Shown here piece after piece: positions 16,143-56,473 of a DNA stretch of 64,000 nucleotides. The notes below the pieces were generated by a model, which made no database searches, was not told the DNA's origin, and saw only the letters and a list, made by a program, of their open reading frames with translations. The position numbers and the translations under genes are program-made. This DNA comes from Escherichia coli (GTDB lineage Bacteria; Pseudomonadota; Gammaproteobacteria; Enterobacterales; Enterobacteriaceae), in assembly GCA_022969815.1 (NCBI GenBank), contig GCA_022969815.1_4535.1; one strand, given 5' to 3'. Within the stretch, counting starts at the first letter, position 1. The number at the start of each line of letters is the position of its first letter.

Positions 16143-18818
16143 TTAGTCGTAATATTTCAAACCTGTAATGAACTTCGATCCCCAATCCGCACTTGCGGCG
16201 GTGAACGTCAACATCCAAGTAGTAGCTGTACCAGTGAAGACCTCTCGTTGCACAGTCCCATCCGTGTGGTAAATGTCCACCCCAGTGTGTCCGTTCTTAG
16301 GAATAGTGAAGGTAGCAGCACTGGAACTGTCTCGTGCATAAGAACAAACAAATGGTGTCCCCGCCCAAACTGGATTTGTCATATCACCCATCTCAAGCTG
16401 TGGAACCCAAGCAATAAGACCTGCCGTACCATCTCCTGCGAAAGTGTCTGATCCACTTGCATTCAAAGCTATAATCTCATAGGTTATAGATGCTTGTTTG
16501 GCAACTGTCACTTTGTGTAGAATTACACGATACCAACCATTCCCCATATCGATTATGTTTGCATCTGCACCTGTAAATGTTCCAGCTACAAGATCATAAG
16601 TCCCTTCGTTAATCTCGTCTCCTGAAGTCAATTTGAGTTTCACTTTAGTGATCCCGTCTGGCTTCAAGAATACAGATGCCGCCCATTGTTTACCTGCTGT
16701 GATATCCGAAGCCGTGTTCACTGCTGATAAAATATGTTGTCCTGAAGTTGTAGAAGGTGTTAACTTGTAAGTGTTAGCGGTAGTTCCAACCGGAGAGTTG
16801 ATTGTTGATGCTGCTACTGTCAAGTTAGTCTTCAGCCACGGGGAGGCGGTTGTCAAGTTATTGTTGATAAAGATATGTGTACGACTGTTTGCTACAACAC
16901 GTCTACCCTGTGGAGTTGTACCAACATATTCTAAAGGTGCTACGGGAGCAGAACTCTCTGTAGGTACAAGGATATCTCCAGAAGTCCTCGCATAACGGTT
17001 ACTCCTGTTTACGCTTACACCTGCCGGAATAGTTTCTTGCGTCAAATCATAGTCCATCACAATCACCACAGCATTTACCGCTAAATAAGAACTATCTTCC
17101 GCAGTTACCACGCCTTGATAGGTTGCTCTACAACCGATACGACAATCCCCATCAGTAACCGCTGTAATAACGCCTGTAACGGGGTCAACTGTTGCTACCG
17201 TAGGGTCGTTAGAGAAATACTCAACAACCATGCCAGGGAGGTTCTCCGCCCCTGCTGGAGTTATTTCTGCCACCAATGTCTGCGTTGTTCCTTCATCCAT
17301 AGCTGAAAGGCTCGGAGTATACACCCCCAGTACAGAAGCATATCCCCCAGAACTGTCGGATAAGGTTGTTCCTGCTGCGTTTAATGCTGTCATCCCTGCA
17401 TCAAAACCACCTTCAGCAACAAACGTCATCAAACCAGAGGAAGATATCGTCATATAAGCTGGGGCAGATGTTGTGTAAGCTTCGTTGAAGATCTTACCTC
17501 CTGAAGGACTTACTGAATAGGTTAACTGTTTGCTCCCACCAACAATACAAATACCTAAAGAATCTGTAGTTAAACTGGTAGCCAAATCTGATCCTAAGAT
17601 CGAATCTTGTGAAATAGGTGCGAACTTGTTAGAATTCAACGTCCCATTAAACAGAGGGTTGGTCTTACCGTCAACAGTAACACCAGAGTAAAACAGATTA
17701 CCATCGTAGACAAAGAAAGTAGCATGGTAGCCTAACTGGTTAGTCACATCCAGATTCTGACTGTGGACACTTGTTAGTTTGCTCATGTCCCAATTCGGAA
17801 CACCTTCGGGTTTAAGAGGCTTCTCAACAACCAAAGGATCTGCTGCCAGAGATGCGTAACCAACACCTAAGTTTCCTGTGTAGTTTTTACCTACAGCCCA
17901 CAAACTGTTATTAATACTTAAGAAGAAAGCGTGGCGACTCATTGGGAAACTCCATGCAGAGAAACCGCCGGAGAAGTTGCTTACTTTCGTATAAGTTGTC
18001 GCAGTGTTAGAACGTGCATACAAATAATTCGTTGTTCCAGTACCGCCAGAGGTATCTCCAATTACCAATGTCTGGGAAACCGTGTTAACGTAATCTTTCA
18101 CAAAAACTGTTTCGGTAGAAGATATAGTCGCAGTAACGAAAGCTGTTGTTGTACTGTTGTTACCTGCCATACCTTTGCTTGCACCGCAAACACGTAATGC
18201 ACCGACATTGTTAAGGTAAGAACACTGGTTGTATCCTGCATCAAATGCTAAAGCAACAGAAGTTATTTGACGTGGATTTGGGATTTGGTTAGTATTACTT
18301 GCACCAAGGCTTCCTACTGTGTTTTGTCCCGAACCATAAAGGACTCCATTGTTCATGAGCCACAAGGTGTTATTATAACCCCCTTTGACCTCTTTCAGGT
18401 TGGCTAAGGTTATGATTGAGGTAATAGATGATGGGAAGCTGGTCCACGTAGTCATGCAAACATCAGCGCCGCCAGCGGCTGTAGATCCAACAAGACCTGC
18501 TAACAATCCTGCATACTGCCAACCACCACTTTGAAGCTTGATAACGAAGCAACGATCTGCTGGAAATATATCTGCTGCTGTTGTTGATGCTAAATGGAAG
18601 GTAGAGTATTTTGCTGTACGTGTGCCGTCAGCAATCTCTCCGAACACATTATCCCCTTGAGTGAATAAACGCCCATCGTTCAAGAGGAGAGCTAAACTGC
18701 TTTTAGAATTGCCAGAAGCATCTGGGTAATCTAAAGTTATTACTTTCTTGATTATTCCTGCTGGAAGTGGAACTACACCTGTGCTGGTCATAATCATCAT
18801 TACTGGAATTGGAAACAT
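16143..18818 (-). CDS. tail fibre / receptor-binding protein with Ig-like (Big_2-like) segment
   Basis: 891 aa, Thr/Ser/Gly-rich beta composition; segment TVDPVTGVITAVTDGDCRIGCRATYQGVVTAEDSSYLAVNAV resembles bacterial Ig-like domains. Confidence 0.55.
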   Translation of the reverse strand: MFPIPVMMIMTSTGVVPLPAGIIKKVITLDYPDASGNSKSSLALLLNDGRLFTQGDNVFGEIADGTRTAKYSTFHLASTTAADIFPADRCFVIKLQSGGWQYAGLLAGLVGSTAAGGADVCMTTWTSFPSSITSIITLANLKEVKGGYNNTLWLMNNGVLYGSGQNTVGSLGASNTNQIPNPRQITSVALAFDAGYNQCSYLNNVGALRVCGASKGMAGNNSTTTAFVTATISSTETVFVKDYVNTVSQTLVIGDTSGGTGTTNYLYARSNTATTYTKVSNFSGGFSAWSFPMSRHAFFLSINNSLWAVGKNYTGNLGVGYASLAADPLVVEKPLKPEGVPNWDMSKLTSVHSQNLDVTNQLGYHATFFVYDGNLFYSGVTVDGKTNPLFNGTLNSNKFAPISQDSILGSDLATSLTTDSLGICIVGGSKQLTYSVSPSGGKIFNEAYTTSAPAYMTISSSGLMTFVAEGGFDAGMTALNAAGTTLSDSSGGYASVLGVYTPSLSAMDEGTTQTLVAEITPAGAENLPGMVVEYFSNDPTVATVDPVTGVITAVTDGDCRIGCRATYQGVVTAEDSSYLAVNAVVIVMDYDLTQETIPAGVSVNRSNRYARTSGDILVPTESSAPVAPLEYVGTTPQGRRVVANSRTHIFINNNLTTASPWLKTNLTVAASTINSPVGTTANTYKLTPSTTSGQHILSAVNTASDITAGKQWAASVFLKPDGITKVKLKLTSGDEINEGTYDLVAGTFTGADANIIDMGNGWYRVILHKVTVAKQASITYEIIALNASGSDTFAGDGTAGLIAWVPQLEMGDMTNPVWAGTPFVCSYARDSSSAATFTIPKNGHTGVDIYHTDGTVQREVFTGTATTWMLTFTAASADWGSKFITGLKYYD

Positions 18819-35216: not shown

Positions 35217-35291
35217 AGAGGAAGATGCAAGATCTTCCCATATTGATTATAATACCACAAATGTCGCCGTTATGTCAATGTAAAAATAATC

Positions 35292-35321
35292 CTTGACTAC
35301 CGTGATCCGCCTTGCTACACT
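35292..35321 (+). promoter_or_regulatory. sigma70-like promoter for the plus-strand cassette gene
   Basis: TTGACT (35293-35298), 17-nt spacer, TACACT (35316-35321), upstream of RBS AAGGAGG and ATG 35347. Confidence 0.4.
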
Positions 35322-35346
35322 GTATTTATTAACTAAGGAGGAAATT

Positions 35347-36360
35347 ATGGGCGTGATTAAAGGTTGGGACATTCAGAAGAAAGAATGTGAAGAAGTGGCA
35401 AGACCAGGTATTACTGTTCTTGGATTTGTTGAACCGTGGAATGGTGCACATACTAAACTGATGCTGAAATGTGAGAAGCATGGAGAATGGAATACAACCT
35501 CCATCAACAACTTCAAAAAGAATGGTTCTGGTTGTAATGGTTGTCGAGCAGATATATGTGGTGCGAGAGCAGAAGGGAATAGTTTTGCAAGTAAAAATGC
35601 TATCTCAGATGAGCAACACATTAAGGATTTCTTGGCTACCGGATTGTTTGCAGAGGGGACGACTTTCGTAAACACAGGGGTGAAAACAAAAGCTAAGAAC
35701 GATTGTTTCTGGAAAGTAACTTGTCCTGTTTGTGCGGTAGACGAATACTCCAAAGCAGGATTAGGAGATGGATCTTTTGAAGCCAGAACTTCGCATATGA
35801 AACGGGGTCAAATCCCTTGTCGTTGCTCTCCTCGGCATATCTACTCTAAAGATCAGTGGATGTTTAGATTTCAGTTAATGTGTGAAGAAAAAGGTTATAC
35901 TTTTGTCAAGGCCATTTATGAAGGGGAAGCATACTCTCACGGAGATGTTGAATACACCTGTCCAGAACACGGCTCGCAACGCATGACTGTGAAGAACCTC
36001 ATGTCAGGTAAAGGTTGTCCAGAGTGTGCCAATAAAACGCAACAGTTCTGTTATATTAATGAAGTGTACGATGAAGATAATAATCTCTGTGCTCTTAAAT
36101 TTGGAATTGCCAATGATGCTGAACGTAGGATCAAAGGTCAGAATTCGAAGAATGCTTTCATAATGAAACAGAAAGTTGTCTACTTCTTTGATGATATCAA
36201 GTCGTGCCGAGCAGCGGAGAGGGAGTGTTTGAAGCTGTTGGAGTGCGGTGTTGTGAATAAATTTCAGTTGAAGGATGGACACACAGAAACAACACACCTT
36301 TCAAACTACACCAAGATTGTCGATATCTTTGAAGAATTTGGAGGGATGTTACAGAAATGA
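35347..36360 (+). CDS. zinc-ribbon repeat protein, possible free-standing homing endonuclease-like gene
   Basis: Opposite strand to the surrounding tail genes; own promoter-like and terminator elements; repeated HG.W...G.GC..C modules; weak GIY-YIG-like spacing (YINEVY ... LKFGIA ... RRIKGQN) near the C-terminus; about 0.8 kb from the intron. Confidence 0.4.
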   Translation: MGVIKGWDIQKKECEEVARPGITVLGFVEPWNGAHTKLMLKCEKHGEWNTTSINNFKKNGSGCNGCRADICGARAEGNSFASKNAISDEQHIKDFLATGLFAEGTTFVNTGVKTKAKNDCFWKVTCPVCAVDEYSKAGLGDGSFEARTSHMKRGQIPCRCSPRHIYSKDQWMFRFQLMCEEKGYTFVKAIYEGEAYSHGDVEYTCPEHGSQRMTVKNLMSGKGCPECANKTQQFCYINEVYDEDNNLCALKFGIANDAERRIKGQNSKNAFIMKQKVVYFFDDIKSCRAAERECLKLLECGVVNKFQLKDGHTETTHLSNYTKIVDIFEEFGGMLQK

Positions 36361-36386
36361 AAAAAGGGGCCGAAGCCCCTTTCTTT
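36361..36386. terminator. bidirectional terminator
   Basis: AAAAAGGGGC-CGAAG-CCCCTTTCTTTT. Confidence 0.65.
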
Positions 36387-37156
36387 TAGTTGCTGTTTGA
36401 CTGTCCACTTAACGTCTGCAAAGTCAGGCTCTGCATGAACGATTCAGAAGAAGCTTTAGCATTGAAATCAATGTAATCGGAAAGACGAGAAACATCACTT
36501 TGTAATGTCAAGGCAACTTCCGGTGTCAACGTAATGTTGAAGGTCGGGTTTGTCTGGTACTGCATAGCTTTAGATTGGAAATTCTGTGCGTCTTGACGAA
36601 TAGATTCTCCGGTAAACGTATAATTGTTTGCCGCAGATCCTGATCCATCTTTCTCAAAATATCCCACAACCTTATCCCAAATAGAAACACCTTCATCATT
36701 TTTGGAAGTGAGTCCATCTGAAACCGCCGCAAAAGGGTTAAAGGTTCTGTTCGCCATATCCCACACACTGGCATCTTTTCCTGTAGCTGCATAAATGAAA
36801 CCGAAGTTCTCGCGCATGAAGCTATCCAACCCTGTAAAGATGTTCAGGAACATGGTTGCAGTTTTGGCTGTGTTGACAGTTAACTTACCCATCTCTTCAC
36901 CCAAATCTTTCGCTACCTTATCCAACATTTTTACGTTGTCCAACCAGGACTCGTCTTTAGGTATTGCGTTCATAAATCCTTCCAGGAAATAGTTCTGCAT
37001 ACCTTGCCCGACCAAGCCTACCGTGGCAGTCAAGCGTGTGTACTCTTTAGAAGCTTCCATTTGCTCATTGGTCAACGCAGCACCAGTACGTTGAAGCATA
37101 CGGAGGGTTTCTTGGAAGCCTTCTCCGTTCTTGCTAAACATACGTTGGTAATGCAT
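36386..37156 (-). CDS. tail tape measure protein, C-terminal segment (3' exon; the ORF continues upstream of this ATG in frame to 37189)
   Basis: In-frame open reading continues 33 nt upstream of ATG 37156 into the intron 3' end; position after tube and chaperone genes. Confidence 0.5.
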   Translation of the reverse strand: MHYQRMFSKNGEGFQETLRMLQRTGAALTNEQMEASKEYTRLTATVGLVGQGMQNYFLEGFMNAIPKDESWLDNVKMLDKVAKDLGEEMGKLTVNTAKTATMFLNIFTGLDSFMRENFGFIYAATGKDASVWDMANRTFNPFAAVSDGLTSKNDEGVSIWDKVVGYFEKDGSGSAANNYTFTGESIRQDAQNFQSKAMQYQTNPTFNITLTPEVALTLQSDVSRLSDYIDFNAKASSESFMQSLTLQTLSGQSNSN

Positions 37157-37523
37157 GAGGTCGTCACCAAGGTTCTCAAGGCTTTGATTTTAAAGGAGTT
37201 TTTGTTAGTAACTCCCCCAGTTCTAACTTCGAACTGCTGCAACTTTCATTGCAGGAAAGACTATATCTTCATCTACGTGAGATGCTTCGCACTTCGCCCC
37301 ACTTGGGGCTACTCTACTCGCTTCCGTATCACTACGTGCTTTCGATAGTCGTTGAACTTTACTCTCGGTGAGAGTCTTAGCTGCTGATTACCCATTGTAC
37401 CATCTTGACAATTTTCAAGCATTCACGCCTGGCGTTGCCGCCTACGTTGTAGCTTGTCAAGCTTTAGGGAGTTCCAGCAATTCACGAAGTTTTCATTACC
37501 TTATCGCTAAGGTACGGCCCCTG
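37157..37523 (-). ncRNA. group I self-splicing intron (compact, no ORF) interrupting the tape measure gene; boundaries approximate
   Basis: On the minus strand the four conserved core elements occur in order: P AATTGCTGGAA (plus 37472-37482), Q AATCAGCAG (37381-37389), R GTTCAACGACTAT (37345-37357), S AAGATATAGTC (37259-37269), with P/Q and R/S pairings; region has no ORF. Confidence 0.75.
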
Positions 37524-38690
37524 TTAAGAAAGGCGACCAATCTGTGCCGAGTTCATGCCACGACGCTCACCTTCATTCACAGTTGCCTGTATGAAAGCTA
37601 ATGGATCGTTCTGCATGTGTTTAATTTGTGAAGGGTTCCAACCGAACATGTTCATGATATCGTTGATACCGTTATCACCCCCACGCCATTTTCCTTTTTT
37701 CTCATCCCATTCAGCAGCCATCATCGAGTTACCCAAACGTTCACGAACGTCTTTAAGGTTATCGATTGACTTAATAATGTTTGCCGAGTCAACACCGTTC
37801 TGTTCACCCCAAGCAGTCATTGTCATAATGGCGTTAGCGTTTGCCTGAACGTTCTCTGCACCACGACCTATGAACTTGATACGATCGTTAGCAGTTTGTA
37901 ACGTATTACCTACAACAGAACCACCTGCAAACAGTCCTGCACCAATCATGGATGAAACCATCATGCGAGGATTAAGGCCCAAAGCGCCATCTCTCATTTG
38001 CGAGTATTGACGATCTTTATCTCGGCGTTGCTGTGCCAGTTCACGTTTATGGTTACGCTCAATATCACGTAGCTCTTTATCACGCATACGCTGACGTTGT
38101 TTGGCTTCTGCTTCCAATTCACGACGAACTCGACGACGACCACGTACTTCATCTTCGATATCTTTTACTTTCTCTCGGTGAGATCGACGAAGATTATCAA
38201 GCTGGTGGGCCAGTGTCTGGTTCATACGTTGAAGAGTGATATCTCCACGTTTGTACGATTCTACAGAAGCATCCATGATTTGTTTGGCTTGGCGTTGCGC
38301 ATCTAAGGAAGCTTTGGTATACTGCATACCACGCTTTTCAAAGTTCTCCATACGGAGATTGCCTAAATCATTACGACGAGCCTGTAGCTCGGCAGCGCGT
38401 TCTTCTGGAGTTTTCTTTCCTGGTTTAGCTGGACGACCAGGACCGGAGGTAGTTCCACCACCTTTTGGAGTAGGAGGGGGAGCAGGGCGAGCAGGGAAAG
38501 TCTGCGCTTTACGCATTTCTCTTTCGATCTCTTTCATCTGCTGCCTAAACTTACTCATGTTTAAGGTGGGCTGTATTCTTTCAGCGAACTTTTTAACACT
38601 CTCTACAGAATCTTTGGCTTCTTTGAGACTGTTCTTGTCCACCTTAAATGTGACTACGTTACTGATTTTAGCCGCGTTTATATCTAACAA
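37524..38690 (-). CDS. tail tape measure protein, N-terminal segment (5' exon; the annotated TAA stop is probably inside the intron)
   Basis: 388-aa charged coiled-coil protein rich in R/K/E/Q; located after tail tube and chaperone genes; too short alone for a tape measure. Confidence 0.55.
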   Translation of the reverse strand: MLDINAAKISNVVTFKVDKNSLKEAKDSVESVKKFAERIQPTLNMSKFRQQMKEIEREMRKAQTFPARPAPPPTPKGGGTTSGPGRPAKPGKKTPEERAAELQARRNDLGNLRMENFEKRGMQYTKASLDAQRQAKQIMDASVESYKRGDITLQRMNQTLAHQLDNLRRSHREKVKDIEDEVRGRRRVRRELEAEAKQRQRMRDKELRDIERNHKRELAQQRRDKDRQYSQMRDGALGLNPRMMVSSMIGAGLFAGGSVVGNTLQTANDRIKFIGRGAENVQANANAIMTMTAWGEQNGVDSANIIKSIDNLKDVRERLGNSMMAAEWDEKKGKWRGGDNGINDIMNMFGWNPSQIKHMQNDPLAFIQATVNEGERRGMNSAQIGRLS

Positions 38691-38705: not shown

Positions 38706-38954
38706 TTAGTGGATCATTTTCTTAAACATGTCTTGCATTTGAGTAGCGTTCTCTTGTTGCTTTCTCTTTATTGAAGTGTCTTTGGTGTACAGAGCTTCAA
38801 TATATTCCTCATAAGTGAGGTACTCGTACATCCCCAATAGATAATCCACCCCGTATTGATCCAGGGTGGAGCGTGTTTCCGAGGTATTCTTCACGACCTT
38901 GCAGAGAATGATCTCATACCACTTCAACGTAAGGGTCTTCTCTGCTGTTTCCAT
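38706..38954 (-). CDS. tail assembly chaperone-like protein
   Basis: Position between tube and tape measure. Confidence 0.4.
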   Translation of the reverse strand: METAEKTLTLKWYEIILCKVVKNTSETRSTLDQYGVDYLLGMYEYLTYEEYIEALYTKDTSIKRKQQENATQMQDMFKKMIH

Positions 38955-38974: not shown

Positions 38975-39457
38975 TTAGTTCGTTGCCAGATCCTGAACTG
39001 CTTGGAACTGGGTCAACAGTTTTCCGAAACCTCGTTTGAAAAAAGGGCCGTAGTTCACCTCAAGAACTTTTGCTGTCAAGTCGAGGACAAGTTCTGGGTG
39101 AGCAAAGAAGAGTTCGTCGAAGTTATCAGATACGTTGTGACCTGCTTCGGTATATACTTCATCTAAGATCTTACGGAGGAACACAGTAAGGTTCTTCTCT
39201 TCAAGACCAGAGAACAATTGAATAAGTGCCATTGCAATACGAGATTCCAGATCTTCTTCAGCCGACATAAGGGCAGTATTGTACATGGTCATAGGTACAG
39301 CTAAAACGCTACCGAGTTCTGGGATACGCTCGAAGACCTTTGAAGGACTCCATTTCAGAATACGGAAGGTTACAAAACGGGTTTCATCTAAGTAGATTTT
39401 TACGATTTCTTCTGGACGTGCATATTGTTTGATAGTATCATCTTGTTGTTCGGACAT
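38975..39457 (-). CDS. tail assembly chaperone-like protein
   Basis: Position between tube and tape measure. Confidence 0.45.
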   Translation of the reverse strand: MSEQQDDTIKQYARPEEIVKIYLDETRFVTFRILKWSPSKVFERIPELGSVLAVPMTMYNTALMSAEEDLESRIAMALIQLFSGLEEKNLTVFLRKILDEVYTEAGHNVSDNFDELFFAHPELVLDLTAKVLEVNYGPFFKRGFGKLLTQFQAVQDLATN

Positions 39458-39508: not shown

Positions 39509-39988
39509 TTATTGAATGGTCAGTGCGGAGATAGAGTTAAGAACACTCATACCTACACCAACTTCATTACGTAACAGGCTTGCATCTTTCAGACCGATAA
39601 CCCATTGGTTCTCTGTAATCATTTCGCCCATAGTGTCTTCAGGTTGAGATTGAATCCAACCAATGGTGCTAATGTAGTAACCACGAGGATCTTCCAGGTA
39701 AACACTGAATGCTACTTGACGAGTAGAATACATTGTTTGAGCATAAGTTGCCAAAACTTCGTTTGCCGGAGATGTACGTTGCAGAGAAATAGTCATGGTG
39801 CCGAGACGGTTGCGGCTAAGAGCCAGAGAAACATCGCCATCAGTACCAGCATATGGGTTAATAATATCGTTGGCTTTTGCAATTACAATTTTAGTGTCGG
39901 TTGCAAAACCCCACGGCTCCCATCCACCCAGGGACAGAACGATTTGGGAAGGATCATAGGCCATTACGCCAGTAAGCATTTTATCCAA
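39509..39988 (-). CDS. tail tube protein
   Basis: 159 aa, immediately downstream of the sheath gene. Confidence 0.55.
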   Translation of the reverse strand: MDKMLTGVMAYDPSQIVLSLGGWEPWGFATDTKIVIAKANDIINPYAGTDGDVSLALSRNRLGTMTISLQRTSPANEVLATYAQTMYSTRQVAFSVYLEDPRGYYISTIGWIQSQPEDTMGEMITENQWVIGLKDASLLRNEVGVGMSVLNSISALTIQ

Positions 39989-40034: not shown

Positions 40035-41408
40035 TTAGTTTGCAGTACGGTTGGTCAGGACGTGAACCTGAACCTTAACGTAATGGAAGAATCCTGCGTA
40101 AACGTATTCAATCTTCATGCCGTCAACCAGACGCTGATTAATCTGCGAATCAGTCATGTCAGCACGAGAAGGAAGGTAAACGATAGGCTTCAGGTCAACA
40201 CGCAGTCCAGTTTCTTCTGAAACAACCACTTCGTTAGAAATAGAGCCATTCAGAATACCAACTTGGATCGGGTTAGCCAGAACCGCTTGTTTAATCAGAG
40301 CCAGACCATTGGAAGTAGCACGAACACCACCACCCAACATTGACTGCTGTTTGAACAGAGTGAACAGAGATTCTTCGGTACGAGCTTTGAACCACAGAGC
40401 GTGAACTACGTAGTCAGCAAAGAAACCGTTAACCATCAGACCATCGCGGTAGAACAGAGTTGCGTGTTCTTTACGGTAGATGTTACCATTCTGTTGAACA
40501 ATGTTATTTTCCGCAGTCTGACCGAGTTTCTCGATTTCAACTCCAACCAGAGTTTTACCATGCAGAGTCGTAGTACCAGGCTGTGCAGAGCAGATAGAAC
40601 CAACAACAGCAGCTTCTGGGAATACAGAGTCTGCGTCGCTCATCCACAGAGCAAAACAGGTATTGACATAGCCAAGGTCATTTAAACGCTCAAGAACGTT
40701 GTCTTCGGCTTTAGTAGTGATACCAACGTCTGAACTGGAGAAGAAGTATACTTTGTCATTCTCTTCTACCCAAGCAGCTACGTCAAGAATATCTTCAACA
40801 GCATGGGAGTCAGACAGAACCCAGAACCAGCTACTATCAATATCGTGCAGAGCGGAGATATCTTCGGTAATACCGTTAGCGTAGACGGTTTCTTTAGCGA
40901 AGCCGCTTGCATCCAGAGAAGCGTATTTGCCTACAACTGGAGAAACAGTGATCACAGCGCCATCGTTAGCAACGGTAAACAGACCACCGTAAACTACGTC
41001 TGCATTGATCATTTCTGTCAGACCAACAACGATTTCTTGTGCTGTTGCAGTGTCGTCAGCAATGAATTTGAAATCTTTCTTGTTCTTGCCTTCTTTGATA
41101 GTGATAACATATGTTGCACTATCTTCAACTGCTGGGGTCAGGGTAAAGTTTGTTACTTCACGCTTACCAACAATCACTTGACTTGGTGCGAATAATCCGT
41201 TAAACAGTTTAACTGCCATGATATAGGCTGGATCATTAACACCGTAACCCGCTTCCAGAAGTGCGTCAGAAGAGGTGTAATATTCAATCGCGTTACCAGT
41301 GACAGTCTGACCAGTAAGGATCAGGGGAATGTCAAACTGGGTTTCACGGATTGATGTAGCTCCGTACAGTAAAGTTACGGTTGCTACCTTTTCACGAAAA
41401 GTTGCCAT
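40035..41408 (-). CDS. contractile tail sheath protein
   Basis: 457 aa; composition and size typical of sheath proteins; followed by the tube gene. Confidence 0.65.
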   Translation of the reverse strand: MATFREKVATVTLLYGATSIRETQFDIPLILTGQTVTGNAIEYYTSSDALLEAGYGVNDPAYIMAVKLFNGLFAPSQVIVGKREVTNFTLTPAVEDSATYVITIKEGKNKKDFKFIADDTATAQEIVVGLTEMINADVVYGGLFTVANDGAVITVSPVVGKYASLDASGFAKETVYANGITEDISALHDIDSSWFWVLSDSHAVEDILDVAAWVEENDKVYFFSSSDVGITTKAEDNVLERLNDLGYVNTCFALWMSDADSVFPEAAVVGSICSAQPGTTTLHGKTLVGVEIEKLGQTAENNIVQQNGNIYRKEHATLFYRDGLMVNGFFADYVVHALWFKARTEESLFTLFKQQSMLGGGVRATSNGLALIKQAVLANPIQVGILNGSISNEVVVSEETGLRVDLKPIVYLPSRADMTDSQINQRLVDGMKIEYVYAGFFHYVKVQVHVLTNRTAN

Positions 41409-53455: not shown

Positions 53456-53575
53456 GATTTGTCCTATTAAGTATTTAGTGTTTAGTGGGTTGTGCGTTTT
53501 AGGAGTCGCACCCCTCCCTCTTAGAAGGAACCAGGCAAGGTCTTCAAAGATACCGCTGGCGCGATATTTGGAGGC

Positions 53576-53654
53576 GGGAATCGGATTCGAACCGATGATC
53601 TCCAGCATATGAAACTGGCGAGGACGACCAAACTCCTCTATCCCGCTATTAGGT
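53576..53654 (-). tRNA. tRNA-Met (anticodon CAU), CCA encoded; A1/C72 mismatch suggests initiator or Ile2 identity
   Basis: Hand-folded cloverleaf: D-stem GAGG/CCTC, anticodon stem CCAGT/GCTGG, loop TTCATAT, T-arm ATCGG-TTCGAAT-CCGAT. Confidence 0.7.
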
Positions 53655-53660
53655 GTCCCG

Positions 53661-53729
53661 TGCTGGATTCGAACCAGCATCACAATAGTTGTGGATCTCT
53701 TATCCTGTAAGTCTAACGGGAAACTGGTT
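53661..53729 (-). tRNA. tRNA-like element, non-canonical (possible pseudo-tRNA)
   Basis: Intact T-arm (GCTGG-TTCGAAT-CCAGC) and 6/7 acceptor pairing, but I could not fold a canonical D-arm or a 5-7-5 anticodon arm; no encoded CCA. Confidence 0.35.
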
Positions 53730-53731
53730 GT

Positions 53732-53805
53732 TTCGACAAGAATCGAACTTGTATCTCACGATTATCAGTCGTGGGTTCTACCATTGAACTACGAAACATT
53801 TAATT
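53732..53805 (-). tRNA. tRNA-Ile (anticodon GAU), CCA encoded
   Basis: Acceptor TGTTTCG/CGAAACA, D-arm GTTC-AATGGTA-GAAC, anticodon arm CACGA-CTGATAA-TCGTG, T-loop TTCGATT. Confidence 0.75.
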
Positions 53806-53821
53806 GGTAGGAATTGCAGGA

Positions 53822-54163
53822 TTACCAAGTAACATCATGCCCTGAATGGAAAGCGCAATGACAGTTCTTACAGAGTAAGACGCAATTCTCTATCTCTTTG
53901 TCTATTCTTGCAAGTGACCAGCCACGCATAGATCCGTAGTTCTTATCTTTTATTGCTGGGTCAAGATGGTGAATATCCAAAGATTCTTCATACTGATTAA
54001 ATCCGCAAGCGGCGCACTTACCTCCTAACTTATCACGAGCATATTTTTTCTTATGTTGTCCAAGTTCTGTCGTATACTTATTATGACAGGCTCCACAAAT
54101 AGATTTCTTATGTCCGTAGAATTTCGTAGGATCTTCTTCGCCACAATGACTGCATTTACACAT
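53822..54163 (-). CDS. HNH homing endonuclease inserted in the tRNA cluster
   Basis: Cys-rich with HHLDP ... N ... LLCKNCH (HNH-type motif); sits between tRNA genes. Confidence 0.65.
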   Translation of the reverse strand: MCKCSHCGEEDPTKFYGHKKSICGACHNKYTTELGQHKKKYARDKLGGKCAACGFNQYEESLDIHHLDPAIKDKNYGSMRGWSLARIDKEIENCVLLCKNCHCAFHSGHDVTW

Positions 54164-54184
54164 ACAAAAAATCTCTTTACAAAT

Positions 54185-54260
54185 TGGTCAGCCTAAGAAG
54201 ACTTGAACTTCTAACCTCACCGCCCCAAACGGCGCACTCTTCCAATTGAGCTATAGGCTG
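54185..54260 (-). tRNA. tRNA-Pro (anticodon UGG), CCA encoded
   Basis: Acceptor CAGCCTA/TAGGCTG, anticodon arm CGCCG-TTTGGGG-CGGTG, T-loop TTCAAGT. Confidence 0.75.
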
Positions 54261-54460
54261 TTAATAAAAAATCTCACGTCTTATACAAGCTAACCTTTTG
54301 CCTGATGCATGAAATTTAAATACATTCTAAAGGTACACCGTAAAAGATTGTCGGGGCGATACTTCAAAAACATACCGATCCGTAGATCGATAATCAGACA
54401 AACTTCGACGGCTCCTCGTTTTTAACTTCACACTTAAGGTAGTGACTCACCTTTGTTATA

Positions 54461-54536
54461 TGGCTGGTCTGTCTGGATTTGAACCAAACCTACGACAGTC
54501 AAAGTGTCGTGTGCTACCGGACTACAATACAAACCA
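54461..54536 (-). tRNA. tRNA-Gln (anticodon UUG), CCA encoded
   Basis: Acceptor TGGTTTG/CAGACCA, anticodon arm CGACA-CTTTGAC-TGTCG, T-loop TTCAAAT; D-stem looks to be 3 bp. Confidence 0.65.
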
Positions 54537-54626
54537 TTTAATGAAGGGCAACCAGAAGAGGTGTGAGAGAAGGAGAAAACCATGAGTAAAAGAGAAAGTT
54601 TTCTGGCAACCCTTTATTAAATAATT

Positions 54627-54700
54627 TGGAGCGTTCTACGAGTTTCGAACTCGTGCCGCCGACTTGGAAGGACGGAATGCTACCGCTACACCAAGAACGC
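54627..54700 (-). tRNA. tRNA-Gly (anticodon UCC), CCA encoded
   Basis: Acceptor GCGTTCT/AGAACGC, anticodon loop CTTCCAA, T-loop TTCGAAA; one U-U mismatch in the anticodon stem. Confidence 0.65.
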
Positions 54701-55268
54701 CCTACATCTTTACTATACTACATTTTACTATCAGTTGTCAATAGTTTTATTGGGCGGGACAGTGACGAGTATCCCATTGGGTGACTAACCCTACGTTCGG
54801 TTGTGATTAATCTCCTGGGTGTCGCTTGCAACACTGGAAAACTCTCACGTCGATGGGAGAATCCGCTTCTTCTTTACCCCATCCAACCCTACTCCGGTCA
54901 AGTTTCAGGTGACTCTTTTTGTGATCAACACAATACTAAGAACACTGTCTTTCGAGCAGACCTTGTGCACAGGATACGACGATCAATCACAGTGCTCTTA
55001 ATGTTGTGCCACAATAATAAGAACATTCAAACGATGACCACTTTTAGTGGAGAGATTTACAAAATGCTCTTAATGTTGTGTTGTGAATACTAACCTCGGA
55101 ACTCATTACCGCGCTTTGGCTCGACCTTATTACAGGTTAGTGAATGTCTTTCGTCCGATTACATTCAATAAATTTGCTTTCTTCACAACGATAAGAACAC
55201 TTAACAGAAGATAGGTCTGATTGCCTCGGATGATTTCTCAGTAGCCTAAATGTTCTTACCTGTTATGT

Positions 55269-55344
55269 TGGTGCTCCAAGTAGGACTCGAACCTACGACC
55301 TCATGCTTACAAGGCAAGTGCTCTACCAACTGAGCTATTGAAGC
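55269..55344 (-). tRNA. tRNA-Thr (anticodon UGU), CCA encoded
   Basis: D-arm GCTC-AGTTGGTA-GAGC, anticodon loop CTTGTAA, T-arm GTAGG-TTCGAGT-CCTAC. Confidence 0.7.
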
Positions 55345-55696
55345 GTATTGCGCCCCTTCAGCCATGCTTGATGTTGACCAGAACACAGTTAAACTGTGGG
55401 AGGAGGAACACCGCAGGGGGCTTCAGTTGGACGACTTACAGGGAGCGACCCTGTTTCTTTTCTGGGACTCGGCAGGATTCGATACCTGCAATTCCAGAAG
55501 CCTCTTGGCAACTGAGGGTTTACCTTAACCCTACAAGTCCATAATTCTTAAATACTTTGGAGCCTTACTGATAAACCGTTAGTTTGTAACATAGCGTATT
55601 TCCATTCTGGGGCACCGCCTGTGAATGTAATTCCAATACAAACTTTCTCAAGATCAAACCAATTATCAAATAACATTACAACCTCCAGTTTGAATT

Positions 55697-55780
55697 TGGT
55701 GTGAGATGATGGATTCGAACCACCGCGCCTTTCAGAAGGGATTTACAGTCCCCCGCAATCGACCACTCTGCCAATCTCAC
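55697..55780 (-). tRNA. tRNA-Tyr (anticodon GUA), long variable arm, CCA encoded
   Basis: Acceptor GTGAGAT/ATCTCAC, anticodon arm GGGGA-CTGTAAA-TCCCT, 12-nt variable arm, T-loop TTCGAAT. Confidence 0.7.
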
Positions 55781-55904
55781 AAAATTGTTTTTAAAGTAGC
55801 CAGTATTCGCGGTACTGACTATGCGGTATCGGAGATGGTGAGAGCCATCTGCCGAAAGTTTACTCTGTTAAAGTAAGAAACAACAAGCTACATTAAAAAC
55901 AACT

Positions 55905-55990
55905 TGGCGGTAGATGTAGGACTCGAACCTACACGCCGTTTCCGACTACAGTTTAGCAAACTGTTGTGGCTACCATTTCACCAATCTACC
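55905..55990 (-). tRNA. tRNA-Ser (anticodon GCU), long variable arm, CCA encoded
   Basis: Acceptor GGTAGAT/ATCTACC, anticodon arm ACAGT-TTGCTAA-ACTGT, 15-nt variable arm, T-loop TTCGAGT. Confidence 0.7.
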
Positions 55991-55996
55991 TAAATT

Positions 55997-56086
55997 TGGA
56001 GGAAGGTAATGGAGTCGAACCATCACCGTATCTCTACAATGGGCCAGGGTTCAAATCTGGTTGCGTACCACTACGCCCTACCTTCC
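55997..56086 (-). tRNA. tRNA-Ser (anticodon UGA), long variable arm, CCA encoded
   Basis: Acceptor GGAAGGT/ACCTTCC, anticodon loop TTTGAAC with A31-C39 mismatch, long variable arm, T-loop TTCGACT. Confidence 0.6.
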
Positions 56087-56321
56087 ATACATTTAATCTA
56101 ACATAAAACGATGTTGATTGTCAACACCTTTTAAAACATTTTATTATGAATGGTGACTCCACCAACCCCCGTTCTCCACGAACGGTACTCTTCGAGCAAT
56201 CTACCCTTGCAATCAAACGTTGTACACCGTTAGCTTACTCATGCATATTTGCCTCATTCTCTGCCAACCATGATCAGTGGTAGGGTTCAAATCACTTGAG
56301 CTAATTCATACTAAAATGTTC

Positions 56322-56396
56322 TGGTGTCTTTACAAGGAATCGAACCTTGACTAAGAGTTTAGAAGACTCCTGTGCTATCCATTACACCATAAAGAC
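56322..56396 (-). tRNA. tRNA-Arg (anticodon UCU), CCA encoded
   Basis: Acceptor GTCTTTA/TAAAGAC, anticodon arm GGAGT-CTTCTAA-ACTCT, T-loop TTCGATT. Confidence 0.75.
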
Positions 56397-56398
56397 GT

Positions 56399-56473
56399 TG
56401 GTGGCCCTGACTGGTTTCGATCCAGTTGCCTATCGGTTATGAGCCGACTGCTCTCCCATTGAGCTACAGGGCC
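56399..56473 (-). tRNA. tRNA-Met or Ile2 (anticodon CAU), CCA encoded; unusual A at T-loop position 54
   Basis: Acceptor GGCCCTG/CAGGGCC, D-arm GCTC-AATGGGA-GAGC, anticodon arm GTCGG-CTCATAA-CCGAT, T-loop ATCGAAA. Confidence 0.65.

What the first reader, a model, noticed from the sequence alone, without database searches (positions are those of the whole stretch)
36386..38690. Group I intron splitting the tail tape measure gene
The apparent tape measure gene is broken into a 388-aa ORF and a 256-aa ORF separated by a 367-nt ORF-free gap. On the minus strand the gap contains all four conserved group I core elements in the right order and with the right pairings: P AATTGCTGGAA, Q AATCAGCAG (pairs with P), R GTTCAACGACTAT, S AAGATATAGTC (pairs with R). 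The downstream reading frame stays open 33 nt upstream of its ATG, so splicing would yield a single protein of roughly 650 aa, a plausible tape measure length. Introns in tail structural genes are uncommon and tie tail assembly to splicing.
Basis: seen in the sequence. Interest (0 to 1): 0.75.

Follow-up and report, generated by a model that had tools for sequence, protein, structure and literature searches.

The report
Self-splicing intron in phage tape-measure gene
The tail tape measure gene of this phAPEC8-like E. coli phage is interrupted by a genuine 349-base group I self-splicing intron, a well-known kind of mobile element already documented in tape measure genes of other phages, so it is a solid but fairly ordinary finding that mainly corrects a mis-annotated split gene.

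Summary
The observation and the interpretation both hold. Rfam's group I intron model matches window 37237-37540 (-) end to end at 84.6 bits (cut-off 50, E 4e-20).

Closely related phages (phiWec188/190, phiWec179, PsgM04F) carry one uninterrupted 1956-nt, 651-aa gene. Aligning them shows a clean 349-nt insertion. Three diverged copies of the intron in other assemblies fix the boundaries:
- The 5' exon ends at U37531, the only conserved U.G pair in P1.
- The intron runs 37530-37182 and always ends in G.
- Exon 2 starts at 37181.
- Splicing restores ...AQIGRL|LENLGDD..., identical to the intron-less proteins.

The fold has P1-P9.2 with P7.1/P7.2 (subgroup IA-like). It has compensatory changes in P2, P9 and P9.1, and a UAA stop in the P1 loop. 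The insertion site is the most conserved block of the protein family.

The intron has no ORF. A sporadic free-standing CapR/T5orf172-type endonuclease gene lies just downstream in every intron-bearing locus that reaches that far. This is a "collaborative homing"-like arrangement, but it is untested.

Tape measure introns are already documented in B. cereus-group prophages, Lactobacillus phage JCL1032 and Vibrio phage ICP1 (splicing shown by RT-PCR). This is therefore a new member of a known kind. It is absent from all 134 homologous GenBank phage records and unannotated in its source record. Splicing itself was not tested.

The parts
37531..38690 (-). Tape measure gene exon 1 (codons 1-386 plus the first two bases of Leu387)
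   Evidence: phrog_16051 positions 1-398. Collinear with phiWec188 up to this base. Ends ...GGUCGCCU in all intron-bearing alleles.
37182..37530 (-). Group I intron, 349 nt, no ORF, subgroup IA-like
   Evidence: RF00028 84.6 bits, full model. Exactly absent from phiWec188, phiWec179 and PsgM04F. Boundaries fixed by three variants.
36386..37181 (-). Tape measure gene exon 2 (third base of Leu387 to the stop codon). The 256-aa ORF starting at ATG 37156 is only its in-frame tail.
   Evidence: phrog_16051 positions 407-658. Exon1+exon2 = 1956 nt, 651 aa, with a single terminal stop.
37517..37534 (-). P1: 5' exon GCCU plus intron UU paired with the internal guide AGGGGC. U37531.G is the 5' splice-site wobble pair.
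   Evidence: In L008 and L010 this is the only U.G pair in P1.
37524..37526 (-). UAA stop in the exon-1 frame, in the P1 loop, 1 codon after the splice site
   Evidence: It stops ribosomes before the ribozyme core, as described for bacterial and phage introns in PMC2504315.
37498..37513 (-). P2 hairpin (ACCUUA GCGA UAAGGU)
   Evidence: Two compensatory pairs in L010 (C-G to U-A, U-A to C-G).
37484..37489 (-). P3 5' strand CUUCGU (pairs with 37285-37290 GCGAAG)
   Evidence: all 6 pairs invariant.
37382..37479 (-).
37355..37381 (-). P6/P6a hairpin (GCU..ACUCUC ACC GAGAGU..AGU)
   Evidence: L010 changes the closing C-G to A-U once the alignment is read by eye.
37345..37350 (-).
   Evidence: 6 of 6 pairs in all variants.
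37296..37336 (-). P7.1 (CGUA GUGA UACG) and P7.2 (GCCCC AAGU GGGGC) hairpins between P7 and P3'
   Evidence: Seen as an insertion relative to the Rfam consensus.
37285..37290 (-). P3 3' strand GCGAAG
37259..37284 (-). P8 hairpin (37270-37284), J8/7, and the P7 3' strand (37259-37264)
37194..37254 (-). P9 (GAAA tetraloop), P9.1 and P9.2 hairpins
   Evidence: Compensatory C-G to U-A in P9 and U-A to C-G in P9.1 of L010.
37182..37182 (-). Terminal G of the intron (omega G), 3' splice site
   Evidence: The intron ends AAAG, AAGAG or AAAGG in the three variants, always G. The following base is the wobble base of Leu387.
35347..36360 (+). Free-standing homing-endonuclease-like gene (337 aa from the conserved ATG), convergent with the tape measure gene and 25 nt from its stop. 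Possible helper for intron mobility; not part of the intron.
   Evidence: Pfam CapR 97.5 bits, treble-clef Zn fingers, T5orf172 17.4 bits (below cut-off 20), phrog_681 endonuclease. A ~1.05-kb cassette absent from phiWec188. Present in every intron-bearing locus that reaches this position.

Best explanation
A 349-nt ORF-less group I intron (window 37530-37182, minus strand) interrupts the tail tape measure gene of a Phapecoctavirus-like coliphage, inside codon Leu387.

Inferred mechanism:
1. In the late transcript the RNA folds into the canonical P1-P9.2 ribozyme, with P7.1/P7.2 (subgroup IA-like).
2. An exogenous guanosine attacks after U37531, the U.G pair in P1.
3. The freed 5' exon then attacks after the terminal G37182.
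4. The exons are ligated to give one 1956-nt ORF encoding the 651-aa tape measure protein, identical across the junction to intron-less relatives.

A UAA in the P1 loop stops ribosomes on unspliced RNA. The 388-aa and 256-aa ORFs are therefore annotation artefacts of one gene.

The element behaves as a mobile insertion. It is sporadic among near-identical phages, sits in the most conserved block of the protein, and is flanked by exon changes that fit its own guide sequence.

Shown here: sequence, structure, boundaries and distribution. Inferred: catalysis, timing and mobility.
For: - Rfam RF00028 scores 84.6 bits (cut-off 50), E 4.4e-20, with model positions 1-253 matched.
- Intron-less alleles have a single 651-aa ORF, and the insertion is exactly 349 nt.
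- Seven independent assemblies carry the intron at the same site (window, L006-L010, L014). The variants are about 95% and 83% identical to the window copy.
- On the canonical structure 98.7% of the 297 pair cells are paired, against 34-43% when partners are slid. Four pairs show compensatory double changes.
- The U.G at the 5' splice site and the terminal G are conserved in all variants. The predicted spliced peptide ...AQIGRLLENLGDD... equals that of the intron-less proteins.
- All intron-bearing alleles have the synonymous CGC-CU that pairs with the guide sequence. Intron-less alleles have CGU-CU, CGU-UU or CGC-UU.
- The insertion site lies in the most conserved block of a family that is only 33% identical overall.
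- The folding energy z-score is -3.1.
- Precedent: ICP1 tape measure introns, whose ribozyme cores are about 70% identical to this one, were shown to splice by RT-PCR (PMC10448857).
Against: - No RNA or protein data exist for this phage, so splicing is inferred.
- With only three distinct variants the covariation statistics are weak: 52 of 500 shuffles reach the observed number of compensatory pairs. All 12 P3 and P7 pairs never vary, so they are uninformative.
- No convincing P10 pairing between the guide sequence and exon 2 could be drawn by eye.
- The subgroup IA assignment rests on recalled criteria, not on a test against reference introns.
Confidence: 0.9

Rival explanations
1. The ribozyme is a decayed remnant that no longer splices. 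The tape measure function would then be supplied by two separate polypeptides (388 aa and about 256 aa), a genes-in-pieces arrangement, or the phage is defective.
For: An in-frame ATG (37156) follows the intron, and gene callers produce two ORFs. Genes-in-pieces created by mobile elements are known for a phage ribonucleotide reductase (cited in PMC10448857).
Against: The model match is full length, with every core helix intact. Helices are maintained by compensatory changes across 17% divergence. The splice-site U.G and terminal G are conserved. The ATG at 37156 is just the conserved Met396 of ...GDDLMHY... in uninterrupted homologues, so residues 388-395 of the most conserved block would be lost. 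The same arrangement recurs in seven assemblies, including a 151-kb contig.
Confidence: 0.05
2. The insertion is an assembly or chimerism artefact of the source record rather than a real feature of the phage genome.
For: The source record is labelled Escherichia coli although the contig is a phage genome. No deposited phage genome carries the intron.
Against: The same intron at the same nucleotide position is present in six other independent public assemblies from different sequencing runs and one metagenome. These include diverged variants in a tape measure gene only 73% identical at the protein level.
Confidence: 0.01
3. On mobility rather than identity: the intron is not autonomous and is not helped by the neighbouring endonuclease. 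It spreads or persists only by ordinary homologous recombination and vertical descent, and the adjacency to the endonuclease gene is coincidental, because both favour conserved structural genes.
For: The endonuclease occurs without the intron in phiWec179/181/186. SNP clusters like the one around the intron also occur elsewhere in the region. In L010 the intron, endonuclease and host gene are all diverged to a similar degree (83% nt, 64% aa, 73% aa), which is compatible with long co-residence.
Against: All five intron-bearing loci that extend far enough carry the endonuclease (three independent lineages), while it is otherwise rare at this position. Relative to phiWec188, the intron and the cassette lie within one SNP-bearing tract (38331-36345) flanked by SNP-free stretches. 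L008 carries a ~25-nt foreign-type exon tract abutting the intron.
Confidence: 0.55

Closest known systems
Group I introns in the tape measure gene of Vibrio phage ICP1 (Barth, Nguyen & Seed 2023, PMC10448857)
   Same: A Gram-negative myophage with a tape measure gene interrupted by group I intron(s). The ribozyme core is about 70% identical over ~180 nt to this intron, and RF00028 hits in the same locus. Splicing was demonstrated by RNA-seq and RT-PCR. The same paper describes an ORF-less terL intron beside a T5orf172 endonuclease.
   Different: ICP1 has three introns, one or two of which carry HNH endonuclease ORFs. Its tape measure protein shows no detectable similarity to this family by tblastn or by a family HMM, so the insertion sites are not homologous. 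The window has a single ORF-less intron.
TMP-IVS1/2/3 group I introns of Bacillus cereus-group prophages, and the Lactobacillus phage JCL1032 tape measure intron (Tourasse & Kolsto 2008, PMC2504315)
   Same: Group I introns inserted in frame in conserved parts of tape measure genes. They have stop codons within the first few codons of the intron and a sporadic distribution among related (pro)phages.
   Different: Those hosts are Gram-positive, the phages are siphovirus-type prophages, their tape measure proteins exceed 1200 aa and are unrelated, and there are several insertion sites per gene.
Phage T4 td, nrdB and nrdD (sunY) introns (subgroup IA2; from general knowledge)
   Same: A coliphage myovirus with the same overall architecture: P7.1/P7.2 between P7 and P3', and P9.1/P9.2 after P9. 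The insertion is in a highly conserved coding segment with an early in-frame stop.
   Different: The T4 introns sit in nucleotide-metabolism genes and carry, or once carried, endonuclease ORFs in peripheral loops. No direct sequence comparison with them was made here.
Collaborative or trans homing: S-PM2 psbA intron with F-CphI, T7-like phage introns, and T4 mobE with the nrdB intron (Zeng et al. 2009 and Bonocora & Shub 2009, as cited in PMC10448857; PMC2790892)
   Same: An ORF-less (or ORF-defective) group I intron in a conserved gene, with a free-standing homing endonuclease gene immediately next to that gene.
   Different: In those systems cleavage at or near the intron insertion site was shown experimentally. 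Here nothing is known about the endonuclease's target, and the endonuclease also occurs without the intron (phiWec179).
Intron of Escherichia phage W70 (Vequintavirinae) next to the 'DNA primase/helicase' CDS, and the intron on IMG/VR contig 3300020048_003360
   Same: These are the closest ribozyme relatives found: 72-73% identity, RF00028 at 70.4 and 91.7 bits, and a very similar P7-P7.1-P7.2 region.
   Different: They sit in different host genes (a replication gene, and a 461-aa ORF of a 208-kb contig), so they are not the same insertion.

Membership tests
Group I catalytic intron (Rfam RF00028) | Covariance-model score at or above the curated gathering threshold over the whole model | tested here: met
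   84.6 bits against 50, E 4.4e-20, model 1-253 of 253, not truncated. The variant introns score similarly through their near-identity.
Group I catalytic intron (Rfam RF00028) | Conserved core helices P3-P8, including the P4 (P/Q) and P7 (R/S) pairings and the P3/P7 pseudoknot | tested here: met
   All helices can be drawn. 99 pairs are 98.7% paired in three variants, against 34-43% for slid controls. P3, P4 and P7 never vary, so they carry no covariation evidence.
Group I catalytic intron (Rfam RF00028) | 5' splice site after a U that forms a U.G wobble with the internal guide sequence in P1 | tested here: met
   U37531.G is conserved in all variants and is the only U.G in P1 of L008 and L010.
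Group I catalytic intron (Rfam RF00028) | Intron ends in G (omega G) | tested here: met
   G37182. The three variants end AAAG, AAGAG and AAAGG.
Group I catalytic intron (Rfam RF00028) | Removal restores an uninterrupted, conserved reading frame; intron-less alleles exist | tested here: met
   phiWec188/190, phiWec179 and PsgM04F have a 651-aa ORF. The in silico spliced product is 651 aa and identical across the junction.
Group I catalytic intron (Rfam RF00028) | Guanosine-dependent self-splicing by two transesterifications | not testable with these tools
   Needs in vitro transcription and splicing with GTP, or RT-PCR from infected cells.
Group I catalytic intron (Rfam RF00028) | P10 pairing between the guide sequence and the start of the 3' exon | tested here: inconclusive
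   Inspection by eye gives only 2-3 possible pairs, with a one-base offset, and they differ between variants (sequences).
Subgroup IA group I introns (Michel & Westhof classification, recalled) | Extra hairpins P7.1 and P7.2 between P7 and the 3' strand of P3 | tested here: met
   CGUA-GUGA-UACG (37336-37325) and GCCCC-AAGU-GGGGC (37309-37296) lie between P7 and P3'. The criterion is recalled from memory, and no reference IA introns were aligned.
Mobile (homing) group I intron with its own endonuclease | Endonuclease ORF inside the intron | tested here: not met
   The intron is 349 nt and has no sense-strand ORF of 40 aa or more contained within it.
Collaborative homing pair (ORF-less intron plus adjacent free-standing endonuclease) | ORF-less intron with a free-standing endonuclease gene adjacent to the interrupted gene | tested here: met
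   The endonuclease-like gene 35347-36360 (+) ends 25 nt from the tape measure stop codon. The arrangement is the same in L006, L008, L009 and L010.
Collaborative homing pair (ORF-less intron plus adjacent free-standing endonuclease) | The endonuclease cleaves intron-less alleles at or near the intron insertion site, and the intron-bearing allele is resistant | not testable with these tools
   Needs a cleavage assay. phiWec179 carries the endonuclease without the intron, and its site differs from that of phiWec188 only at +15 and +18.
Collaborative homing pair (ORF-less intron plus adjacent free-standing endonuclease) | Intron and endonuclease are co-inherited | tested here: inconclusive
   All 5 informative intron-bearing loci have the endonuclease (3 lineages). 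Among intron-less close relatives, 1 lineage has it and 2 do not. The numbers are too small to decide.
T5orf172-type homing endonucleases with CapR-like zinc-finger DNA-binding repeats (PMC10448857) | CapR, DUF723 or DUF4397-type zinc-finger DNA-binding domain(s) | tested here: met
   Pfam CapR 97.5 bits (cut-off 24.2) in 3 stretches, and DUF4379 24.5 bits, right at its 24.5 cut-off. DUF723 scores 19.4, below its 20.9 cut-off.
T5orf172-type homing endonucleases with CapR-like zinc-finger DNA-binding repeats (PMC10448857) | T5orf172 (GIY-YIG-clan) nuclease domain | tested here: inconclusive
   PF10544 scores 17.4 bits, below its cut-off of 20 (E 0.0064). 4 of 5 orthologues hit at E<=0.01, best 8.7e-4. 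phrog_681 'endonuclease' scores 189 bits. No NCBIfam hit.

The most novel reading that the evidence does not exclude
The ORF-less intron and the adjacent CapR/T5orf172-type endonuclease gene may form a two-part mobile unit in a coliphage tail gene. In this reading the endonuclease cuts intron-less tape measure alleles at or near the Leu387 insertion site during co-infection, and repair copies in the intron, the ~0.8-kb exon 2 and the endonuclease cassette together. This would be an example of collaborative homing, a proposed route to composite mobile introns, in an easily cultured E. coli phage group for which natural intron-less/endonuclease-less (phiWec188), endonuclease-only (phiWec179) and both-element genomes all exist.
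Probability: 0.3. Interest if true: 0.5.

Novelty: new member of a known kind. Interest (0 to 1): 0.3.

Why it matters
There are three practical consequences and one scientific one.

- **Annotation.** The source record (WP_247177439 and WP_247177438, labelled E. coli) and many metagenome assemblies call two "hypothetical proteins" where there is one 651-aa tape measure protein. The exact splice coordinates allow that to be corrected.
- **Comparative genomics.** This adds an intron to the Stephanstirmvirinae. I found no paper describing one there, and no deposited genome carries it.
- **Phage engineering.** Anyone engineering or classifying these therapy-candidate phages should know the tail gene is split.
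- **A possible test system.** Natural variants exist with neither element, with the endonuclease only, and with both, all at 95-98% identity. That would make a convenient system for testing whether free-standing endonucleases mobilise ORF-less introns.

The phenomenon itself (a group I intron in a phage tape measure gene) is already established.

Tried and rejected
- **Closer copies in deposited phages.** Megablast of the gene and blastn of the intron against 50,697 phage records found no copy covering 80% or more of the intron. tblastn showed all 134 homologous tape measure genes uninterrupted.
- **E. coli complete genomes.** Only three 104-nt partial matches.
- **IMG/VR.** A 22-mer found one related intron in another gene (L004) and one chance match (L005). 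A 25-mer conserved in all variants found nothing.
- **GTDB genome contigs.** Nothing.
- **JGI metagenomes.** One more copy, L014, too short to reach the endonuclease position.
- **Orthology with ICP1.** I tested whether the ICP1 tape measure introns sit at a homologous site. They do not: the ICP1 protein is not detectably related by tblastn or by a 14-sequence HMM.
- **A second intron.** A second exact copy of the S motif at 18119 (+) suggested another intron. It lies antisense inside an 891-aa ORF, with no group I signal at E<=1, so I treat it as chance.
- **Structure strings.** My first attempt to build the structure string by text matching mis-placed several helices. I replaced it with explicit columns.
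- **RNAalifold.** It cannot draw the P3/P7 pseudoknot and proposed spurious local pairs there. I removed these before counting.
- **Custom covariance model.** Not built, because a ~370-column model would exceed the calibration limit.
Full report
**Context.** The window is part of a phAPEC8-like myophage genome (Stephanstirmvirinae, Phapecoctavirus). The nearest GenBank relatives are Escherichia phages phiWec188 and phiWec190, at 97.7% identity over the gene. The tail module runs on the minus strand:
- sheath, 40035-41408
- tube-like protein, 39509-39988
- tail assembly chaperone, 38975-39457
- an 82-aa ORF, 38706-38954
- the two ORFs in question

The exact 388-aa product is in NCBI as WP_247177439/MCJ8478694. 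It is a "hypothetical protein" of an "Escherichia coli" assembly, on a 151,297-bp contig that is evidently the phage genome. The second piece is annotated separately as a 237-aa hypothetical protein.

**The observation.**
- The ORFs are 37524-38690 (388 aa) and 36386-37156 (256 aa), separated by 367 nt.
- The four motifs each occur once in the gap, on the minus strand and in the order P-Q-R-S.
- The downstream frame is open for 33 nt before its ATG.
- Both ORFs hit the same tape-measure profile. In phrog_16051, positions 1-398 match the first ORF and 407-658 the second, out of 660.

**Is it a group I intron?** Rfam's covariance model RF00028 matches 37237-37540 (-) over its full length at 84.6 bits (gathering score 50, E 4.4e-20). 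It is the only such hit in the 64-kb window. The MFE fold is more stable than shuffled sequence (z = -3.1, 0 of 100 shuffles as stable) and recovers most helices.

**Exact boundaries.** Three intron-less relatives (phiWec188, phiWec179, PsgM04F) carry a single 1956-nt, 651-aa ORF. Multiple alignment shows one clean 349-nt gap in them. The alignment alone leaves a 1-nt ambiguity. Other intron-bearing copies resolve it:
- L006 and L007 are 99.6-100% identical to the window copy.
- L008 and L009 are about 95% identical.
- L010 is about 83% identical, in a tape measure protein only 73% identical.

In all of them the 5' exon ends ...GGUCGCCU. The intron ends in G (AAAG, AAGAG or AAAGG). The next base (C or A) is the wobble base of a Leu codon. 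In L008 and L010 the U of CGCCU is the only U.G pair in P1. The resulting coordinates are:
- exon 1 ends at 37531
- the intron is 37530-37182
- the terminal G is 37182
- exon 2 starts at 37181

Joining the exons gives 1956 nt and 651 aa with one terminal stop. It reads ...AQIGRL|LENLGDDLMHY..., identical to the intron-less proteins in every allele.

**Anatomy (minus strand).**

| Element | Window coordinates | Sequence or note |
|---|---|---|
| P1 | 37534-37517 | exon GCCU plus intron UU against the guide AGGGGC |
| UAA stop | 37526-37524 | in the P1 loop, one codon past the splice site |
| P2 | 37513-37498 | hairpin |
| P3 | 37489-37484 with 37290-37285 | CUUCGU / GCGAAG |
| P4 | 37479-37474 with 37387-37382 | UGCUGG / UCAGCA |
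| P5 and P5a-c arm | within 37382-37479 | extended arm |
| P6/P6a | 37381-37355 | hairpin |
| P7 | 37350-37345 with 37264-37259 | GACUAU / AUAGUC, pseudoknotted with P3 |
| P7.1 | 37336-37325 | GUGA loop |
| P7.2 | 37309-37296 | hairpin |
| P8 | 37284-37270 | hairpin |
| P9 | 37254-37237 | GAAA loop |
| P9.1 | 37236-37218 | hairpin |
| P9.2 | 37216-37194 | hairpin |

P7.1 and P7.2 between P7 and P3', together with P9.1 and P9.2, match the architecture I recall for subgroup IA (IA2) phage introns such as T4 td. That assignment is from memory and was not tested against reference sequences. I could not draw a convincing P10.

**Evidence for selection on the fold.** I counted 99 pairs of the canonical structure on the three distinct variants.
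- 98.7% of the 297 cells are standard pairs, against 34-43% when the 3' partners are slid by 1-3 columns.
- Four pairs show changes on both sides that keep pairing: two in P2, one in P9, one in P9.1.
- Six further pairs change on one side only and stay paired.
- By eye, the closing pair of P6a also switches from C-G to A-U in L010.

With three sequences the shuffle control is weak: 52 of 500 shuffles reach four compensatory pairs. The Rfam score therefore remains the main statistical argument. P3, P4 and P7 never vary, which says nothing either way.

**Behaviour as a mobile element.**
1. *Sporadic distribution.* The intron is absent from all 134 GenBank phage records that encode a homologue of this protein, every listed record matching in a single piece across residue 388. 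Yet it is present in seven independent assemblies. The 90%-identity protein cluster mixes intact 651-aa proteins with 388+251/256-aa and 399+285-aa split forms.
2. *Conserved target.* The insertion site is in the most conserved segment of the family (ATVNEG.RRGM..AQIG.L.E.LGDDLMHY). This block is nearly invariant in homologues only 33% identical overall.
3. *Matching exon ends.* All intron-bearing alleles share the synonymous 5'-exon ending CGC-CU, which forms Watson-Crick pairs with the guide sequence. The four intron-less lineages have CGU-CU, CGU-UU or CGC-UU.
4. *Co-conversion-like tract.* In L008 the first ~25 nt of exon 2 are of the PsgM04F/P0016 type, although the rest of its exon 2 is of the window type.

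**The neighbour.** Relative to phiWec188 the window has two clean insertions: the intron, and a ~1.05-kb cassette (35290-36341) that replaces 15 nt.
- The cassette encodes a 337-aa protein (35347-36360, +). It has three CapR-type zinc-finger stretches (97.5 bits), a treble-clef zinc finger, and a C-terminal region that matches T5orf172 just under Pfam's cut-off (17.4 against 20). Four of five orthologues hit T5orf172 at E<=0.01. phrog_681 "endonuclease" scores 189 bits.
- Orthologues are 64-99% identical and sit at the same place in L006, L008, L009 and L010, that is, in every intron-bearing locus that extends that far. They also occur in the intron-less phiWec179/181/186. Other relatives have only ~45%-identical paralogues elsewhere in their genomes.
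- This is the arrangement called collaborative homing for the S-PM2 psbA intron with F-CphI and for T7-like phages. It has also been noted for the ICP1 terL intron with a T5orf172 gene (PMC10448857). T4 mobE promoting trans-homing of the nrdB intron is similar (PMC2790892).
- Against phiWec188, SNPs are absent over 39388-38332 and 35289-34984, but occur throughout 38331-36345. That tract brackets the intron and abuts the cassette. It is compatible with one conversion tract, but similar SNP clusters occur elsewhere, so it is only suggestive.

Whether the endonuclease targets the intron insertion site cannot be decided here.

**Comparison with what is known.** Group I introns in tape measure genes are established:
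- three insertion sites in B. cereus-group prophages, and one in Lactobacillus phage JCL1032 (PMC2504315);
- three introns in the ICP1 tape measure gene, with splicing shown by RNA-seq and RT-PCR. The authors call the tape measure gene "another frequently interrupted gene" (PMC10448857);
- tail and capsid gene introns in Cluster J mycobacteriophages, which are also spliced (PMC3706429).

The window intron's ribozyme core is about 70% identical to an ICP1 tape-measure intron. The ICP1 protein is not detectably related to this family, so these are analogous insertions, not orthologous ones. The closest ribozyme relatives are an intron of coliphage W70 (Vequintavirinae) near its primase/helicase gene, and one on a 208-kb IMG/VR contig in another gene. 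A full-text search found no paper describing an intron in Phapecoctavirus.

**Verdict.** The finding is real and correctly interpreted. It is a canonical group I intron, new for this phage group and missed by annotation, but of a well-known kind in a gene already known to host such introns. Splicing, its efficiency, and any role of the neighbouring endonuclease remain to be shown experimentally.

Noticed in passing
window 35290-36341 (ORF 35347-36360, +): A ~1.05-kb cassette encoding a CapR zinc-finger and probable T5orf172 endonuclease. It is inserted between the tape measure gene and the Dit-like gene and replaces 15 nt of phiWec188. At this position it occurs only in phiWec179/181/186 among GenBank phages. 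The ORF listing extends the ORF to a TTG at 35293, but all orthologues start at the ATG at 35347.
   Followed up: partly
window 53572-56473 (-): A cluster of ten tRNA genes on the minus strand (Rfam RF00005, 45-74 bits).
   Followed up: no
window 18119-18129 (+): A second exact copy of the 11-nt S motif AAGATATAGTC (0.04 expected by chance). It lies antisense inside an 891-aa ORF (16143-18818, -), and no group I signal appears at E<=1, so it is judged a chance match.
   Followed up: yes
window 38706-38954 (-): An 82-aa ORF (phrog_16039, unknown function) sits between the tail assembly chaperone and the tape measure gene, where many phages have the frameshift-extended chaperone segment. It is conserved in relatives, but the gene caller skipped it in L010.
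   Followed up: no
source record of the window (WP_247177439 / MCJ8478694; 151,297-bp contig): The phage genome is deposited as a contig of an 'Escherichia coli' assembly. The tape measure gene is annotated there as two hypothetical proteins (388 aa and 237 aa).
   Followed up: partly
L002 (OR584014.1, 'Pseudomonas phage PsgM04F'); rows H58, H111, H112 ('Campylobacter phage' B15, A150, C3): Records labelled as Pseudomonas or Campylobacter phages. PsgM04F is about 96% identical (nucleotide) to this E. coli phage over most of the tail module. The Campylobacter-labelled records encode tape measure proteins 41-59% identical to this one, the same as the E. coli Phapecoctavirus and Justusliebigvirus records listed beside them. 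The host labels look doubtful, or the host range is unusually wide.
   Followed up: no
L013 1358-1623 (Escherichia phage W70, OP778610.1): A related group I intron (RF00028 70.4 bits) lies between a 'hypothetical protein' CDS and the 'DNA primase/helicase' CDS, with an HNH endonuclease gene further downstream. It is probably another unannotated split gene in a Vequintavirinae phage.
   Followed up: partly
L004 317-620 (IMGVR_UViG_3300020048_003360, 208-kb contig): A group I intron (91.7 bits), 73% identical to the window intron, directly follows a 461-aa ORF in a jumbo-phage-sized contig. The host gene was not identified.
   Followed up: no
L008 3860-3885 versus window 37181-37157: In L008 and L009 the first ~25 nt of exon 2 (AUUAGAAAAUCUGGGCGAUGACCUU) are of the PsgM04F/P0016/L010 type, while the rest of exon 2 is window-like. 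This looks like a short co-conversion tract abutting the intron.
   Followed up: partly
window 36416-36917 (-): The C-terminal third of the tape measure protein comes in two very different allelic forms: window/phiWec188/L008 type versus phiWec179/PsgM04F/P0016 type. Nucleotide identity between them is only ~44-64% here, inside otherwise 90-98% identical genes, which marks a recombination module boundary within the gene.
   Followed up: no
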